A stretch of 64,000 nt of DNA from the human T2T-CHM13v2.0 reference genome, Homo sapiens (GCF_009914755.1 NC_060938.1), one strand, 5' to 3'. Shown: positions 38,160-52,970, counted from the first letter of the stretch. Program-made: numbers and translations. Notes: generated from the letters alone by a model not told the origin.

Positions 38160-38366
38160 CGCAGATTCGCCGCGCGCGCCCGGGCCGCGCCGCCCGCAAC
38201 GGCCGCGCCCGCGGGATGGGACAGGCACCGGGACCACGGCGGGGACGCGAGGACTGGAGCCGCGACCTCCCCACTGCGAGCGAGCTGGCCTCCCTTGCGG
38301 CGCGCCGGCGTCGGAGGGGCGACCTGCGGGGGCTGGGCTTCGGCGGAACCCGAGCGGGGCCTACCG
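38160..38366 (+). other. PACS2: Putative alternative upstream first exon of PACS2 in the BRF1 promoter
   Basis: Plus-strand donor CCG|GTGAGC at 38367, with alternatives at 38411 and 38496. The start is a guess. It agrees with my recollection of an upstream PACS2 isoform, which I have not verified. Confidence 0.5.
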
Positions 38367-38512
38367 GTGAGCGCAGCCGAGGACTGGCGCTTGGGGGCGG
38401 GGCCACGGCGGTGAGCGCAGCCCGGGACTGGAGTTTGGGGCGGGGCCTCGTCGGTGGGCGACACCGGGGACTAGAGCTAAGGGTGGGGCCTCGCGGTGAG
38501 TGCAGCCGGGGA
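38355..38512. repeat. Degenerate ~43-bp GC-box / GTGAGC repeat in the BRF1 promoter (4 copies, more decayed copies to about 38850)
   Basis: GGGGCC-N3-4-CGGTG(A/G)G(C/T)G(C)A..CGGGACT.GAG.TT.GGGG, with GT at 38367, 38411, 38454 and 38496. Confidence 0.7.
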
Positions 38513-39242
38513 CGGGACCCAAGGCTGGCGACGGGACCCAAGGCTGGCGACGCGACCTAAGGCAGTGGGCGGGCCCTTGGCGATGAACGCAGTCGGGGAC
38601 TAAAGCTGGACGCGGGGCAGAGGAGGGTCCTCCTCGGATAGTGAGCGCGGTCTCCAGCGGCGAGCGAGGCCTGGGGTGAGGACTCAGCCGGATGCGGGGC
38701 TGAGGGTGGGGGGCGGGGCCTCCCGTGGAGAGACGGCCTGCGAAGGGAACTGGAGCTGTGGGCGGGGGAAGGGGGCGGAGCCTGGGTCTGGACCCGAACT
38801 GTGGGCGGGGCTTGAGGCGAGGGGGCCGAGCGTGGTGGGCGGGGCCTTGGCTCCTGAGGGCGACCTGGGACCCAACCCCGGGCTCTGGGAGTGGTGGGCG
38901 GGGCCAGGGCAGCTGCGCTGGGGGGCCTGGCCGCAGAGGTGGAGACACCCGCCAGGGGCCACCCTGCCCCGCCCTCCGCATTTGCGGCGTCCGCCGCTCC
39001 GCTCGCCCAGGTTCCAGAGCCTCCCCGTGCGCCCCGCTATTCTCCGTTTTCTGTTCCCCTAAAATTCCCACTTTCTAGCAGTCATTCGTGGCCACCTGTG
39101 GTTACCCGTGAGTCACCTCGCTGTGCCCCCTGCCCAGAGCGGGAACCCTGGCTGCGCACGCCCTCAAATATCTGCAGGTGCTGTTCACAATCGCCATAGG
39201 GCCGGTGACATACCCAGGAATGAGCCTAAAAAGAAATGCGTA

Positions 39243-40930
39243 ACCAGGCGTAGTGGCTCACGCTTGTAATCCCAGCACTTTGGGAGGCCAAGGCAGGCGG
39301 ATCACGTAAGGTGAGGAGTTCGAGACCAGCCTGGCCAACATGGCGAAACCCCGTCTCCACTAAAAATACAAAAAAATTAGCCAGGCTTGGTGGTGGGCGC
39401 CTGTAATCCCAGCTACTCGCGAGTCTGAGACAGGAGAACCACTTGAACCTGAGAGGTGGAGGTTGCAGTGAGCTGAGATCCCGCCATTGCACTCCAGCCT
39501 GGGTGACGGGTGACAAGAGTGAAACTCTGTCTCAAAAAAAAAAAAGAGAAAAAAGGAAATGCGGAAGACCCCACCCTCTTTTTTTTCTTTCTTTTTTTTT
39601 TTTTTTTGAGACGGAGTCTCTGCTCTGTTGCCCAGGCTGGAGTGCAGTGGTGAGATATCGGCTCACTGCAACCTCTGCCTCCTGGGTTTAAGCGATTCTC
39701 CTCTCTCAGCCTCCCGAGTAGCTGGGATTACAGGTATGCACCACCACACCTGGCTAATTTTGTATTTTTAGTAGAGACGGGGTTTCTCCATGTTGGTCAG
39801 GCCAGTCTTGAACTCCCGACCTCAGGTGATCCGCCCACTTCAGCCTCCCAAAGTGCTGGGATTACAGGCATGAGCCACCGTGCATGGCCCTATTTCATTA
39901 ATTTCTGCTCTCATTTTTGTTAGATCCTTCTTTCCACTTAATTTGGTTCAATGTGTTCCCTTTTTCTAGTTTCTTCATTTTTTAAAAATTGAGATAGTGT
40001 CTCATTCTGTCACCCAAGGTGGAGTGCAGTAGCATAATCAAGCCTCACTGCAGACTCTACCTCCTGGGCTCAGGTGATCCTCCCACCTCAGCCTCCCGAG
40101 TAGCTGGAACTACAGGCATGTGCCACCACACCCAGATAATATTTTTTGTAGAGATGGGTTTTTGCCTCATTTGCCCAGGCTGGTCTGGAACTCCTGGGCT
40201 CAAGTGAGCCACCCGCCTTGTCTTCCCAAAGTGCTGGGATTACAGGCATGAGCCACTGCTCCCCGCCCTGTCCTCCCAAAGTGCTGGGATTACAGGCATG
40301 AGCCACTGCTCCCCGCCCTTTCTCTAGTTCTTTTTTTTTTTTGAGATAGAGAACACCCAGGCTGGAGTTCAGTGGTGCCATCTCAGCTCACTGCAACTTC
40401 CACCTCCCAGGTTCAAGTGATTCTGTCACTTCAGCCTCCCAAGTAGCTGGAATTACAGGCATGTGCCACCACGCCCAGCTAATTTTTGTATTTTTAGTAG
40501 AGATGGGGTTTCACCATGTTGGCTAGGCTGGTCCCAAACTCCTGACCTCAAGTGATCCACCTGTCTTGGTCTCCCAAAGTGTTGAGATTCTACACGTGAG
40601 CCAATGCACCCGGCCCCTTTTTCTAGTTTTTGTTTTGTTTTGTTTTTTGAGGTGGAGTCTCGCTCTGTCACCCAGGCTGGAATGCAGTGGTGCGATCTTG
40701 GCTCACTGTAACCTCCACCTCCCGGGTTCATGCCATTCTCCTGCCTCAGCCTCCCAAGTAGCTGGGACTACAGGTGCCCACCACCATGCCTGGCTAATTT
40801 TTTGTATTTTTAGTAGAGACAGGGTTTCACTGTGTTAGCCAGGATGGTCTTGATCTCCTGACCTCGTGATCCACCTGTCTCGCCCTCCCAAAGTGCTGGG
40901 ACTATGGGCGTGAGCCATCGCGCCTGGCCT
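39243..40930. mobile_element. Alu cluster (plus 39243-39546, then minus elements)
   Basis: Tail-to-tail pair 39243-39546 / 39580-39889; minus Alus 39990-40930, including a tandemly duplicated Alu 5' end at about 40207-40320. Confidence 0.9.
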
Positions 40931-41239
40931 TTTCCTAGTTTTTTAAGGTGAAAGATGAAATCATTGATTTAAGATCTCTTTTCCTTTATAAATAGGCATT
41001 TTATTGCTATAATTCTCCCTGTAATTACCACTTTAGCTGAATCCTGCACATTTCAATGTGCTGTGTTTTCATTTTCATTCAGCTCAAGATTGTCTCCACT
41101 CTTAATTTCCTCCCGGATCCAAGGGTTATTAGGAAGTGTATTGTTTTGTTTCTAAATGTTGGGGATTTTTCAAATATGTATTATTGATCTCTATGCAAAA
41201 TGCTCTCTGTCCATGATGACATTTCATCCTTATGGCAAC

Positions 41240-41385
41240 ACTAGCTTGCAGACACTGTTGTCTCCATTTTATGGAGGGAGCCCTTGAGGATGTGAGGGGT
41301 GACAGCCCCAAATCTCATAGCCAGTAGGTAACAAAGCCAGAATCCAATCTGAGGCCATGTGGCCACTGGATCCTTGCTCTCACCT
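41240..41385. mobile_element. MIR fragment
   Basis: TCTCCATTTTATGGAGG...CATAGCCAGTAGGTAACAAAGCCAGAATCCAATCTGAGGC, a decayed MIR core. Confidence 0.5.
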
Positions 41386-51200: not shown

Positions 51201-52206
51201 TGGTGCTGGACCACAGCCGCTGCCAAACAGATGGGGGAAGCACCCTCCCTGAGCCCCAGAGCCTACACGTCGGGCCCCAGCGGCTCTAGCCATTGCCTCC
51301 TCTTTGCTTGGGTCCCCAAGTTCACTGTTAACCCCAGGGCCAGGAGCCAGCCTTGGCCCCAGACATTTGTTCTCCATTGTCCTGAGCACAACGCTGAAAA
51401 GCGGCGCTGAATAAGGATGCTGGGACGCAAAGAGGGCGCCCGGGGTCATCTGGAGCCCTGGAGGCTAAGCTCGGCAGCCTGGCGCCCCGAGTGGCTTCGA
51501 GTCCCCGCGACCGCCGCCAGGCCCGGCCACCTCCTTGCCACCTCCCTGCGTCCCGGGGAACCCACGCAGGGGGGCGCGAGGGAGGGGCTCGGGGACGGGC
51601 GGGGCCCGCACAGCCGGGCCAACCCAGCGGGGGTCGGCAGGAGACAAGGGGCGGCGAGGGCAGGGGGGCGGGGAGACTCGGGGCATGGCGGGGTGGAGGC
51701 GGGAAAGTGTCGAGGCCGGGGAATCCGCGCGTGGGGAGGTGGGCATCGCCAGGGCGACGATGAGCTTTCCTTAGGGGGCGGCGCCTGAAGCTGGCCGGGA
51801 CCCGGTGGACCCCCACGACTCTCCCGGCCCTTGCCCGCGGCTCCCGGGGGGCGGGGCGGGGCGCCCCGGGCGGGGTCTGTGCGCAGGCGCGTGAGTGCGC
51901 GCTCTCGCGCACCGGCGGGCGGGGACGCCCCGTGAGGCGCCGCCGGAGGAAGCGCGCGCGCACCTCACTTCCGGCGCGCGCTGCGCCGGCGGCGATTGGA
52001 CCCGAGGCGGCGAGCTGGCGCCCCGCCCAGCCAATCGGCGGCGCCGGCGCGGGTCGGAGGGCGCCGGGCGCGCGCGGGGCGGCCGGGGGCGCGCGGGGCG
52101 CGGGCGGGGCGCCGGGCGGGGCGGGGCGGAGCGGCCGCAGCTCGTCGCCGCCCGCGGGCCTGTCCGACGCCGGGGCCCGGCCCGTCCCCTCCGCCGCCCG
52201 GCAGCC

Positions 52207-52212
52207 ATGTGA
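52207..52212 (+). promoter_or_regulatory. Start-stop uORF (ATG TGA) upstream of the PACS2 ATG
   Basis: gcagccATGTGAcc, about 100 nt 5' of the main ATG and 3' of the CCAAT/ETS core. Confidence 0.6.
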
Positions 52213-52307
52213 CCGCGCCGCCGCCCTCCGCGCGCCCGGCCCGCCCGCCGCGCGTCCGCGGCCCGGCCGCAGCCCCAGGCCGCCGAGGGAGCGGCGGGGC
52301 CGGCGCC

Positions 52308-52426
52308 ATGGCCGAGCGAGGCCGCCTCGGCCTCCCCGGCGCGCCCGGCGCGCTCAACACGCCCGTGCCCATGAACCTGTTCGCCACCTGGGAGGTGGAC
52401 GGCTCCAGCCCCAGCTGCGTGCCCAG
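52308..52426 (+). CDS. PACS2: PACS2 coding exon 1 (119 nt)
   Basis: Strong Kozak context gcgccATGg. Encodes [39 protein letters not shown](R), the PACS-family [10 protein letters not shown] motif. Donor AG|GTACGC, phase 2. Confidence 0.97.
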
Positions 52427-52710
52427 GTACGCGCCGCCCGCCGCGCTTTGTTCCCGCCGGGCACCTGCTGGGGGTGTCCTGGCCGCGGCCTCTGCGCGCC
52501 CCATCCCCGGCCCGGGTCCCCCAGCGGAGCCCAGGTCGCCCCCCGCGCCCCCGCCCGCCGGTTCGACGCGTGCAGCCGCCGCCCCCCCGCAGCTCCGGCA
52601 AGCGCGGCCCCAGCCCCCCAGGTCCCGAGCACCGGGGGCCGCGCTCAGCTTCCGAGGACCCGGTGCTGCTCAGACCCGGCGGGACCTTGGGGCTCCCGGG
52701 CGGCGCTCAC

Positions 52711-52970
52711 CTGGCTCGCCGCAACCGCACCTGCACACCTGCCTCAATGCGGTGCCGGCCGGGGTGACGAGGGTGCTTCCTCTCTCGGGTACCACACGCT
52801 TCCTTTCGCGTTCGGCGACACTGTCAGACCTCGGCCTGGGAGCGACCCCCGGCGCACGGGGCGCGCAGGACTCGGTTGTATCCTCCGTCCAGCGCGCGGT
52901 GGAGATGCCCTGTCCTGCGGGGCGGGGTCGTCCTCGCGGGTACCTGGTTGGCGCTGTCTCTCATTTAGAG
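52711..52970 (-). other. BRF1: Putative alternative non-coding first exon of BRF1 inside PACS2 intron 1
   Basis: Strong minus-strand donor CCAG|GTGAGC (GT at 52710-52709) within the PACS2 CpG island. The 5' boundary is a guess. It agrees with my recollection of an upstream BRF1 isoform, which I have not verified. Confidence 0.6.

What the first reader, a model, noticed from the sequence alone, without database searches (positions are those of the whole stretch)
38160..52970. Reciprocal promoter-swap architecture: each CpG island carries a splice donor aimed at the other gene
Seen: the BRF1 island has plus-strand donors (CCG|GTGAGC 38367, GCG|GTGAGC 38411, GCG|GTGAGT 38496) facing PACS2. The PACS2 island has a minus-strand donor (CCAG|GTGAGC 52710) facing BRF1. 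Inference: divergent transcription from each promoter can be spliced into exon 2 of the neighbour, bypassing its coding exon 1. For BRF1, the first in-frame ATG after exon 1 is Met116 in exon 3 (MAVSRH...), so the product would lack the zinc ribbon and linker but keep downstream domains, possibly acting as a dominant-negative or altered TFIIIB. For PACS2, the strong-context ATG at 38216 reaches these donors in phase 1, 0 and 1, never the phase 2 of PACS2 exon 1, so it would be a uORF and the protein N-truncated. The two long isoforms would overlap antisense across about 14.6 kb and each would run through the other gene's promoter. I recall such isoforms being annotated, but I do not know of the symmetric logic being described as a system.
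Basis: partly seen in the sequence, partly recalled or inferred. Interest (0 to 1): 0.8.

Follow-up and report, generated by a model that had tools for sequence, protein, structure and literature searches.

The report
Annotated alternative first exons, BRF1 and PACS2
Two neighbouring human genes that point away from each other each have a rarely discussed extra start exon inside the other gene's promoter island; this is real and already annotated, and it looks like an ordinary case of genes overlapping at their starts rather than a new regulatory system.

Summary
Three of the four coincide with exon ends in the RefSeq table supplied with the finding: 38366, 38410 and 52711. The reading-frame claims also hold: BRF1 Met116, and ATG 38216 in phases 1/0/1.

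Sequence alone is weak evidence. One such donor per island strand is expected in 34-43% of shuffles. The three plus-strand donors are copies of one 43-bp tandem unit.

I located PACS2 exon 2 outside the window. ATG 38216 then gives a 54-codon upstream ORF, and the next canonical-frame start is Met68.

Both predicted short proteins would begin inside a folded domain. BRF1 would start inside its first TFIIB repeat and PACS2 inside its N-terminal C2 domain. Both leaders carry upstream ORFs.

The layout is not symmetric, and the extra start sites lie inside the host gene's transcribed region.

Overlap of protein-coding genes at their 5' ends through alternative start sites is a described class, with 582 human pairs.

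Verdict: observation confirmed, "system" reading only partly supported, low novelty.

The parts
37601..38800 (.). CpG island at the BRF1 5' end (GC 0.75, CpG o/e 0.99)
37833..38388 (-). BRF1 canonical exon 1. ATG at 38016-38014. The coding part encodes the TFIIB-type zinc ribbon. Donor ACG|GTGAGT.
   Evidence: RefSeq table; (PF08271, E 2.6e-15)
38161..38366 (+). PACS2 alternative first exon. It lies wholly antisense within the 5'UTR of BRF1 exon 1 (206 nt overlap).
   Evidence: RefSeq table
38216..38218 (+). Upstream ATG in strong context (G at -3, G at +4). With donor 38366 it opens a 54-codon ORF ending 14 nt into PACS2 exon 2.
38367..38375 (+). Donor 1, CCG|GTGAGC. It ends the annotated PACS2 alternative exon.
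38411..38419 (+). Donor 2, GCG|GTGAGC. It ends exon 1 of the predicted model LOC124903409.
38496..38504 (+). Donor 3, GCG|GTGAGT. Not used by any row of the annotation table.
38351..38610 (.). Array of five units of about 43 bp. Each unit has a GC box (GGGCGGGGCC) followed by the donor-like GGTGAGCGCAG. Units 1, 2 and 4 keep GGTGAG; unit 3 reads GGTGGG and unit 5 GATGAA. A 19-bp repeat (38511-38563) sits between units 4 and 5. The stretch is single-copy in the genome.
51401..53100 (.). CpG island at the PACS2 5' end (GC 0.78, CpG o/e 0.96)
52137..52426 (+). PACS2 canonical exon 1. ATG at 52308, coding part 119 nt (phase 2), donor CAG|GTACGC.
   Evidence: RefSeq table
52711..52978 (-). BRF1 alternative first exon, in PACS2 intron 1, 284 nt past PACS2 exon 1. 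It has one ATG (52964-52962, weak context) opening a 46-codon ORF that closes inside the exon. Single-copy in the genome.
   Evidence: RefSeq table
52702..52710 (-). Minus-strand donor CAG|GTGAGC (8 of 9 consensus positions). It is the last of three CAGGTG motifs within about 30 nt.
23683..23763 (-). BRF1 exon 2, the presumed acceptor exon for the alternative first exon. Its acceptor has a strong pyrimidine tract. Its last three bases are an out-of-frame ATG in strong context.
9581..9754 (-). BRF1 exon 3. It matches positions 10-64 of 92 of the TFIIB repeat. The Met116 ATG is at 9674-9672.

Best explanation
BRF1 (minus strand) and PACS2 (plus strand) are a head-to-head gene pair. Their main start sites lie in two CpG islands about 13.7 kb apart.

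Each island also initiates on its other strand, from a site inside the host gene's transcribed region. These opposite-strand transcripts meet a good 5' splice site within 206-268 nt of their start. The first poly(A)-signal hexamer comes only 3.0-3.5 kb later.

By the established role of U1 snRNP in protecting nascent RNA from early termination, such transcripts can elongate across the spacer and through the other island. The neighbour's exon 1 is a first exon and has no acceptor. The donor is therefore joined to the neighbour's exon 2.

The result is the two RefSeq-annotated alternative first exons. I read them as default 'first-exon capture' products of two-stranded CpG-island initiation, not a dedicated swap system. 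Both leaders carry upstream ORFs, and the only canonical-frame starts left (BRF1 Met116, PACS2 Met68) lie inside folded domains. The isoforms are therefore probably minor, poorly translated and prone to nonsense-mediated decay.

Shown here: the sites, frames, domain cuts and geometry. Inferred: U1 dependence, joining to exon 2, low abundance and low translation.
For: - Donors and annotated exon ends coincide for 3 of 4 sites (against the RefSeq table).
- By a crude 9-position consensus count the alternative donors score 7/9 and 8/9. The canonical first-exon donors both score 7/9.
- The first AATAAA/ATTAAA after the donors is 3,511 nt away on the plus strand and 3,039 nt away on the minus strand. 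There are 10 and 8 hexamers in the spacer.
- PACS2 exon 2 was located at extended coordinate 85882-85969, outside the window. It has canonical AG/GT sites and is phase-continuous with exon 1. It matches the PACS1 paralogue at 22 of 30 residues. Exons 1-4 hit PF25332 collinearly at profile positions 1-19, 22-50, 51-82 and 83-124.
- PACS2 alternative leader: a 54-codon upstream ORF from a strong-context ATG, stopping 14 nt into exon 2 and 68 nt before Met68.
- BRF1 alternative leader: a 46-codon upstream ORF closing 113 nt before the exon junction. It is followed by a strong-context out-of-frame ATG of 14 codons, ending 38 nt before Met116.
- Domain cuts: the zinc ribbon is entirely in exon 1. 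Met116 maps to about profile position 35 of 92 of the first TFIIB repeat. Met68 maps to about position 49 of 170 of the PACS C2 domain.
- PACS1 has Leu where PACS2 has Met68.
- No Rfam family lies in 36000-54500, so the long introns host no known RNA gene.
- Literature: U1 shields transcripts from early termination, and scarcity of U1 sites limits antisense elongation (PMC11230626, passages). 582 human protein-coding pairs overlap at their 5' ends through alternative start sites, mostly only in some libraries (PMC8076222 section 5; PMC5753363 passages).
Against: - No expression, CAGE, long-read or ribosome-profiling data could be consulted. Abundance, tissue pattern and the actual downstream exon joined are therefore inferred.
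- The annotation table lists only exon coordinates. It does not say which of the 21 BRF1 and 16 PACS2 transcripts are curated and which are predicted.
- BRF1 isoforms lacking the zinc ribbon have been reported to bind TBP and to reconstitute transcription in crude systems. A 584-residue zinc-ribbon-less isoform rescued zebrafish brf1b knock-down (PMC4315290 passages; PMC7328520 passages). N-truncated BRF1 can therefore be active.
- Work on 5'-overlapping pairs found higher, not lower, expression when overlapping start sites are used (PMC8076222 passages). An experimentally dissected pair depends on sense/antisense interaction (PMC11890862 abstract). So 'by-product' is not the default conclusion in that literature.
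- Retention of GGTGAG in 3 of 5 repeat units could reflect selection for the donors.
Confidence: 0.6

Rival explanations
1. Coupled regulatory switch. Transcription from each island's opposite-strand start runs through the other island and its own host promoter. It modulates canonical BRF1 and PACS2 output by promoter competition, polymerase collision, R-loops or RNA duplexes. The pair would be reciprocally regulated.
For: - Both extra start sites lie inside the host's transcribed region, 227 and 841 bp from the host start. A review says this arrangement can give two-state sense/antisense elements (PMC10887517 abstract).
- The PACS2 alternative exon is fully complementary to 206 nt of the BRF1 5'UTR, so a duplex of mature RNAs is possible.
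- INO80E/HIRIP3 shows such a dependence experimentally (PMC11890862 abstract).
- Both long nascent transcripts cross the other promoter (geometry).
Against: - There are no data on co-expression or anticorrelation for this pair. Four searches found no paper on it.
- The arrangement is asymmetric. The BRF1 alternative exon has no exon-level overlap with PACS2.
- A donor in an island strand is expected by chance in 34-43% of shuffles.
- In the genome-wide study most pairs overlap only in some libraries, and overlap was not linked to lower expression.
Confidence: 0.15
2. Protein-diversifying promoters. The alternative first exons exist to make N-truncated proteins: a BRF1 without zinc ribbon and linker (altered or dominant-negative TFIIIB) and a PACS2 without its first 67 residues.
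For: - Met116 and Met68 both have A at -3, and Met116 also has G at +4.
- Zinc-ribbon-less BRF1 isoforms are described and show activity in vitro and in zebrafish rescue (PMC4315290 passages; PMC7328520 passages).
- The zinc ribbon is confined to exon 1.
Against: - Met116 removes about 34 of 92 profile positions of the first TFIIB repeat, and Met68 about 48 of 170 positions of the C2 domain. Both products would begin inside a fold.
- Ribosomes must pass a 46-codon and a strong-context 14-codon upstream ORF to reach Met116 in BRF1. They must pass a strong-context 54-codon upstream ORF in PACS2.
- A Met116 product would be 562 residues (677 minus 115), which is not the 584-residue isoform tested in print.
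- PACS1 lacks a Met at the Met68 position.
Confidence: 0.12
3. Annotation noise. The two exons come from sparse cDNA or RNA-seq evidence, or from predicted models. They reflect very rare or aberrant transcripts (for example from tumour lines) with no steady presence in normal tissue.
For: - The neighbouring predicted model LOC124903409 shares the same island and uses donor 38410. Only 1 of its 3 junctions is canonical, and its later exons lie in masked repeats, so weak models exist at this locus.
- The table does not separate curated from predicted transcripts.
- Overlap is reported more often in transfected and cancer cells (PMC8076222 abstract).
Against: - Both exons end at canonical, consensus-like donors. 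The BRF1 alternative donor scores 8/9, higher than either canonical first-exon donor.
- Both lie in CpG islands, where initiation on both strands is usual.
- I recall, from no call, curated browser tracks showing both long forms.
Confidence: 0.1

Closest known systems
5'-overlapping (head-to-head) protein-coding gene pairs created by alternative start sites (OverGeneDB; Rosikiewicz et al. 2018 and 2021), for example FBXL15/PSD
   Same: Opposite-strand neighbours whose overlap exists only when distal alternative start sites are used. In FBXL15/PSD both genes use two start sites, and only the distal ones overlap (PMC5753363 passages). That is the same reciprocal logic as here. 582 human pairs are catalogued.
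   Different: The overlap here is 14.8 kb, against a reported mean of 1,570 bp. The reported maximum is about 50 kb. I could not check whether BRF1-PACS2 is among the 582: neither name is in the main text or in the held supplements, and those supplements are not pair lists.
INO80E/HIRIP3 head-to-head overlapping pair
   Same: A 5'-extended isoform of one gene runs antisense over the partner's 5' end (PMC11890862 abstract).
   Different: RNA:RNA duplex and R-loop effects were shown experimentally there. Nothing of the kind has been tested for BRF1/PACS2. Here only one side (PACS2 alternative exon against the BRF1 5'UTR) could pair as mature RNA.
Antisense promoter just downstream of a gene's start site (bidirectional promoter complexes or switches; Anderson and Anderson 2024 review)
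   Same: In both islands the annotated opposite-strand start lies downstream of the host start, by 227 and 841 bp. The review discusses this configuration (PMC10887517 abstract).
   Different: Switch behaviour is not shown here. The antisense products are isoforms of a protein-coding neighbour rather than noncoding RNAs.
U1 snRNP / poly(A)-signal control of promoter directionality and telescripting (Almada 2013 and Kaida 2010, as cited in PMC11230626)
   Same: The opposite-strand transcripts carry a 5' splice site within 206-268 nt of their start. There is no poly(A) hexamer for the next 3.0-3.5 kb. This is the feature set expected to permit productive elongation.
   Different: U1 dependence is inferred, not tested. 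The cited eLife paper argues that much antisense termination does not depend on poly(A) signals.
BRF1 isoforms lacking the zinc ribbon (McCulloch et al. 2000, seen only as cited by Borck 2015 and Yeganeh 2020)
   Same: A product from the alternative first exon would lack the zinc ribbon encoded in exon 1.
   Different: Starting at Met116 it would also lose about a third of the first TFIIB repeat. It would be 562 residues, not the 584-residue isoform tested in zebrafish. McCulloch 2000 itself is not held.

Membership tests
5'-overlapping head-to-head protein-coding gene pair | Two protein-coding genes on opposite strands, pointing away from each other | tested here: met
   BRF1 coding exons read on the minus strand and PACS2 exons on the plus strand, with Pfam support (RefSeq table).
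5'-overlapping head-to-head protein-coding gene pair | At least one start site of one gene lies beyond a start site of the other, so the transcribed regions overlap by at least 1 bp at the 5' ends | tested here: met
   Annotated starts are at 38161 (+) against 38388 (-), and at 52978 (-) against 52137 (+). The start-to-start overlap of the two long forms is 14,818 bp (from the table's coordinates).
5'-overlapping head-to-head protein-coding gene pair | Overlapping start sites actually used in a tissue or cell library | not testable with these tools
   No CAGE, TSS-seq or RNA-seq data are available here. The pair is not named in the texts or held supplements searched.
Classical bidirectional promoter (divergent, non-overlapping starts less than 1 kb apart) | [quoted passage not shown] | tested here: not met
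   The main starts, 38388 (-) and 52137 (+), are 13,749 bp apart. The close pairs (227 and 841 bp) overlap rather than diverge.
U1/poly(A)-signal licensed productive antisense transcript | A 5' splice site close to the start, with no poly(A) hexamer before it or soon after | tested here: met
   The donors lie 206 and 268 nt from the annotated starts. The first hexamers come 3,511 and 3,039 nt after the donors.
U1/poly(A)-signal licensed productive antisense transcript | Elongation depends on U1 binding | not testable with these tools
   This needs a U1 antisense morpholino or donor mutation with nascent-RNA readout.
Functional zinc-ribbon-less BRF1 isoform | Lacks the zinc ribbon but retains both TFIIB (cyclin) repeats | tested here: not met
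   The ribbon (PF08271) is in exon 1. Met116 falls at about profile position 35 of 92 of the first PF00382 repeat, so that repeat would be truncated. This assumes initiation at Met116 and splicing to exon 2.
Functional zinc-ribbon-less BRF1 isoform | The protein is made and binds TBP/BDP1 | not tested
   Only literature on other isoforms was seen.

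The most novel reading that the evidence does not exclude
The two islands form a coupled, mutually interfering pair. 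Each long isoform is a poorly translated decoy, and making it drives polymerase through both its own host promoter and the neighbour's promoter. Cells could then lower BRF1 (Pol III capacity) and PACS2 (membrane traffic and apoptosis control) in a coordinated or mutually exclusive way. In this reading the 43-bp array, which pairs a GC box with a 5' splice site in each unit, acts as a copy-number-dependent U1-recruiting module. The module would set how much opposite-strand transcription escapes the BRF1 island.
Probability: 0.07. Interest if true: 0.55.

Novelty: already known. Interest (0 to 1): 0.15.

Why it matters
As it stands, the value is mainly in careful annotation. Both extra first exons are already in RefSeq, and the arrangement belongs to a catalogued class of 5'-overlapping gene pairs.

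It would matter more if the long isoforms proved abundant or regulated. BRF1 limits Pol III transcription and is mutated in a neurodevelopmental syndrome, with reported isoform-specific effects (PMC4315290). A promoter that yields only zinc-ribbon-less or non-translated BRF1 RNA would then bear on how variants and expression data at this locus are read.

- The predicted short proteins start inside folded domains.
- Both leaders carry upstream ORFs.
- The three plus-strand donors are one duplicated unit.

Tried and rejected
- **Finding PACS2 exon 2 by tblastn:** I ran open frames of the PACS2 region against the PACS1 region. The output was swamped by Alu matches. It recovered exons 3, 4 and later ones but not exon 2. 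Exon 2 was then found with a short peptide pattern recalled for the family, which served only as a lead. It was confirmed by the PACS1 match, the splice sites, phase continuity and collinear Pfam positions.
- **Hosted RNA gene:** the idea that the spacer holds an RNA gene which the long introns would serve is rejected. There were 0 Rfam matches at gathering score in 36000-54500.
- **Repeat family:** the idea that the tandem array or the BRF1 alternative exon belongs to a dispersed repeat is rejected. Each gave only its own match in the genome, with the tool's caveat that common words are skipped.
- **LOC124903409 as independent support for spliced plus-strand RNA:** weak. Only the junction 38410|gt...ag|43535 is canonical. 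The other two junctions are not, and the later exons are repeat-derived.
- **Papers on this pair:** BRF1+PACS2 gave 9 papers, none on promoters. PACS2 + 'alternative promoter' gave 3, none relevant by title and abstract start. BRF1 + 'bidirectional promoter' gave 11 (9 listed). The one opened uses BRF1 only as a ChIP factor. PACS2/bidirectional/antisense/isoform gave nothing specific among the 10 listed.
- **Preprint PMC13404804:** it looked promising because 'isoform' occurs 50 times, but it concerns isoforms of other genes after Brf1 knock-down.
- **McCulloch et al. 2000:** not held.
- **Supplements:** those of PMC8076222 and PMC5753363 that are held are enrichment tables or very short. They do not list the gene pairs. 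Whether BRF1-PACS2 is in OverGeneDB therefore stays open.

Full report
**What was checked**

The window is human chr14 (T2T), with BRF1 on the minus strand and PACS2 on the plus strand, head to head. I read both islands directly and re-derived every coordinate by script.

- CCG|GTGAGC, with GT at 38367
- GCG|GTGAGC, at 38411
- GCG|GTGAGT, at 38496
- CAG|GTGAGC on the minus strand, with the first intron base at 52710

Three of the four are the ends of exons in the RefSeq table attached to the finding: the PACS2 exon 38161-38366, LOC124903409 exon 38015-38410, and the BRF1 exon 52711-52978. The site at 38496 is not used by any row of that table.

The two CpG-rich runs are 37601-38800 (GC 0.75, o/e 0.99) and 51401-53100 (GC 0.78, o/e 0.96). 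Both alternative exons lie inside them.

**Is it more than chance?**

GGTRAG occurs 4 times on the plus strand of the BRF1 island (38367, 38411, 38496, 38676). Dinucleotide shuffles give 0.5, and 0 of 200 reach 4.

Tandem Repeats Finder reports a 43-bp unit in 3.8 copies at 38354-38517. An alignment of five units shows the same layout in each: a GC box (GGGCGGGGCC) followed a few bases later by GGTGAGCGCAG. Units 1, 2 and 4 keep GGTGAG. Unit 3 reads GGTGGG and unit 5 GATGAA. The three plus-strand donors are therefore one duplicated site, not three observations.

With the array collapsed, the island has 2 sites against 0.41 expected. Of 1000 shuffles, 5.7% reach 2 and 34% have at least one.

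The minus strand of the PACS2 island has 1 site against 0.57 expected, and 43% of 1000 shuffles have at least one.

Sequence statistics alone do not make the case. The annotation does. Both stretches are single-copy in the genome.

**Coding consequences for BRF1**

Exons 1-3 translate to 146 residues, with Met at 1, 116 and 128. Met116 opens MAVSRH.

A model leader was built from the alternative exon plus exons 2 and 3. It has three features ahead of Met116:
- A weak-context ATG at 52964 opens a 46-codon ORF, which closes 113 nt before the exon junction.
- The last three bases of exon 2 are an out-of-frame ATG in strong context (A at -3, G at +4). Its 14-codon ORF ends 38 nt before Met116.
- Met116 itself is also in strong context.

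Pfam places the zinc ribbon (PF08271, E 2.6e-15) entirely in exon 1. Residues 91-145 match positions 10-64 of 92 of the TFIIB repeat (PF00382, E 1.1e-19). Met116 therefore sits near profile position 35. A Met116 protein would lose the ribbon, the linker and about a third of the first cyclin-like repeat.

**Coding consequences for PACS2**

Exon 2 lies outside the window, so I fetched the rest of the gene from the held genome and the PACS1 region for comparison.

tblastn was flooded by Alu matches. It recovered exons 3, 4 and later ones but not exon 2. A short recalled peptide pattern then pointed to one place in each gene.

That place has these properties:
- A canonical acceptor and donor, at extended coordinates 85882-85969 (88 nt).
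- Phase continuity with exon 1.
- A match to PACS1 at 22 of 30 residues.
- Collinear Pfam placement: exons 1, 2, 3 and 4 hit PF25332 (PACS N-terminal C2 domain) at profile positions 1-19, 22-50, 51-82 and 83-124.

Only exon 4 passes the Pfam cut-off on its own (71.3 bits). The other three score 16.2, 15.6 and 19.0 bits against a cut-off of 27.

With donor 38366, the strong-context ATG at 38216 gives a 54-codon ORF that stops 14 nt into exon 2. The next ATG, 68 nt later, is Met68 in the canonical frame. With donors 38410 or 38495 the upstream ORF is 103 or 97 codons; with 38410 it also runs over Met68.

Met68 maps to about position 49 of 170 of the C2 domain, so this product too would begin inside a fold. 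PACS1 has Leu at that position.

**Geometry**

- The long forms overlap by 14,818 bp from start to start. Their first introns would be 28,947 and 47,515 nt.
- The annotated extra starts lie inside the host's transcribed region. Start 38161 (+) is 227 bp downstream of the BRF1 start at 38388 (-). Start 52978 (-) is 841 bp downstream of the PACS2 start at 52137 (+). This is overlapping initiation rather than classical divergent initiation.
- The arrangement is not symmetric. The PACS2 alternative exon is wholly antisense to 206 nt of the BRF1 5'UTR. The BRF1 alternative exon sits in PACS2 intron 1, 284 nt past exon 1, and overlaps no PACS2 exon.
- The mature long mRNAs do not overlap each other. 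Only the nascent transcripts do.

**Mechanism**

The donors lie 206 and 268 nt from their starts. By a 9-position consensus count they score 7 and 8, while the canonical first-exon donors both score 7. The first poly(A) hexamers follow only 3,511 and 3,039 nt later.

U1 snRNP is known to protect nascent RNA from early termination (passages of PMC11230626). Such transcripts should therefore elongate. The neighbour's exon 1 has no acceptor, so exon 2 is the natural partner.

I therefore read the two exons as default products of two-stranded island initiation plus a 5' splice site. Their upstream ORFs close well before downstream junctions. By the usual 50-55 nt rule (established knowledge, not a call) this makes them candidates for nonsense-mediated decay. 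These last steps are inference.

No Rfam family lies in 36000-54500, so the long introns do not serve a known RNA gene.

**Comparison with what is known**

- Protein-coding pairs that overlap at their 5' ends through alternative start sites are catalogued. There are 582 human pairs, with a mean overlap of 1,570 bp and a maximum of about 50 kb. Most pairs overlap only in some libraries (PMC8076222 section 5 and passages; PMC5753363 passages).
- FBXL15/PSD is described there as a pair in which both genes use two start sites and only the distal ones overlap. That is the same logic as here.
- INO80E/HIRIP3 is an experimentally dissected case (abstract).
- A review treats antisense promoters just downstream of a start site as possible two-state elements (abstract).
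- BRF1 isoforms without the zinc ribbon are in print, with in vitro activity and a zebrafish rescue by a 584-residue form. Their in vivo role is called unknown (PMC4315290 passages; PMC7328520 passages). A Met116 product would be 562 residues, so it is not evidently that isoform.
- The cloned BRF1 promoter is reported to hold several Sp1/KLF-type sites, which fits the GC-box array (PMC2533013 passages).
- I found no paper on the BRF1-PACS2 arrangement itself. The held supplements could not tell me whether the pair is in OverGeneDB.

**Verdict**

The points that weaken it are:
- The three donors are one duplicated unit.
- 'Divergent' and 'symmetric' do not fit the coordinates.
- The predicted proteins start inside domains and behind upstream ORFs.
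- The arrangement belongs to a known, catalogued class and is already annotated.

The regulatory-switch reading is not excluded, but nothing here supports it beyond geometry. Interest is low.

Noticed in passing
window 38351-38610: Five-unit array of about 43 bp just upstream (in the BRF1 sense) of the annotated BRF1 start. Each unit pairs a GC box with a donor-like GGTGAGCGCAG, so one duplicated unit supplies Sp1-type sites on one strand and 5' splice sites on the other. Copy-number variation in people could not be checked.
   Followed up: partly
window 38511-38563: A second tandem repeat, 19-bp unit, 2.8 copies, 94% matches, inserted between units 4 and 5 of the 43-bp array.
   Followed up: no
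window 52713-52741, minus strand: Three CAGGTG motifs (E-box-like) within about 30 nt at the 3' end of the BRF1 alternative exon. The last one forms the donor, and the other two also score 7 of 9 as donors.
   Followed up: no
window 38015-48582 (LOC124903409): In this predicted 'pseudogene' model only the first junction (38410|gt...ag|43535) is canonical; the other two are not. Exon 3 starts in a T-run and exon 4 lies in Alu-like sequence. Its first exon starts at a plus-strand ATG (38015-38017) that overlaps the BRF1 start codon in antisense. That ATG opens a GC-rich ORF still open at the exon end, 132 codons. It looks like a weak model.
   Followed up: partly
window 8701-9200: A third CpG-rich run (500 bp, GC 0.71, o/e 0.74) lies 381 bp downstream, in the BRF1 sense, of BRF1 exon 3 and hence inside intron 3. 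It is a possible further internal promoter. No exon is listed there in the table.
   Followed up: no
L004:1882-1969 (extended window coordinate 85882-85969) and the PACS1 region (L010-L025): PACS2 exon 2 ends with an in-frame Met68, whereas the PACS1 paralogue has Leu at that position. The internal start left to the PACS2 alternative isoform is therefore not a shared family feature.
   Followed up: partly
window 23683-23685, minus strand: BRF1 exon 2 ends in ATG, directly followed by G from exon 3. This creates a strong-context out-of-frame start only in the spliced RNA. It is irrelevant in the canonical mRNA but is the first strong ATG in the alternative leader.
   Followed up: yes
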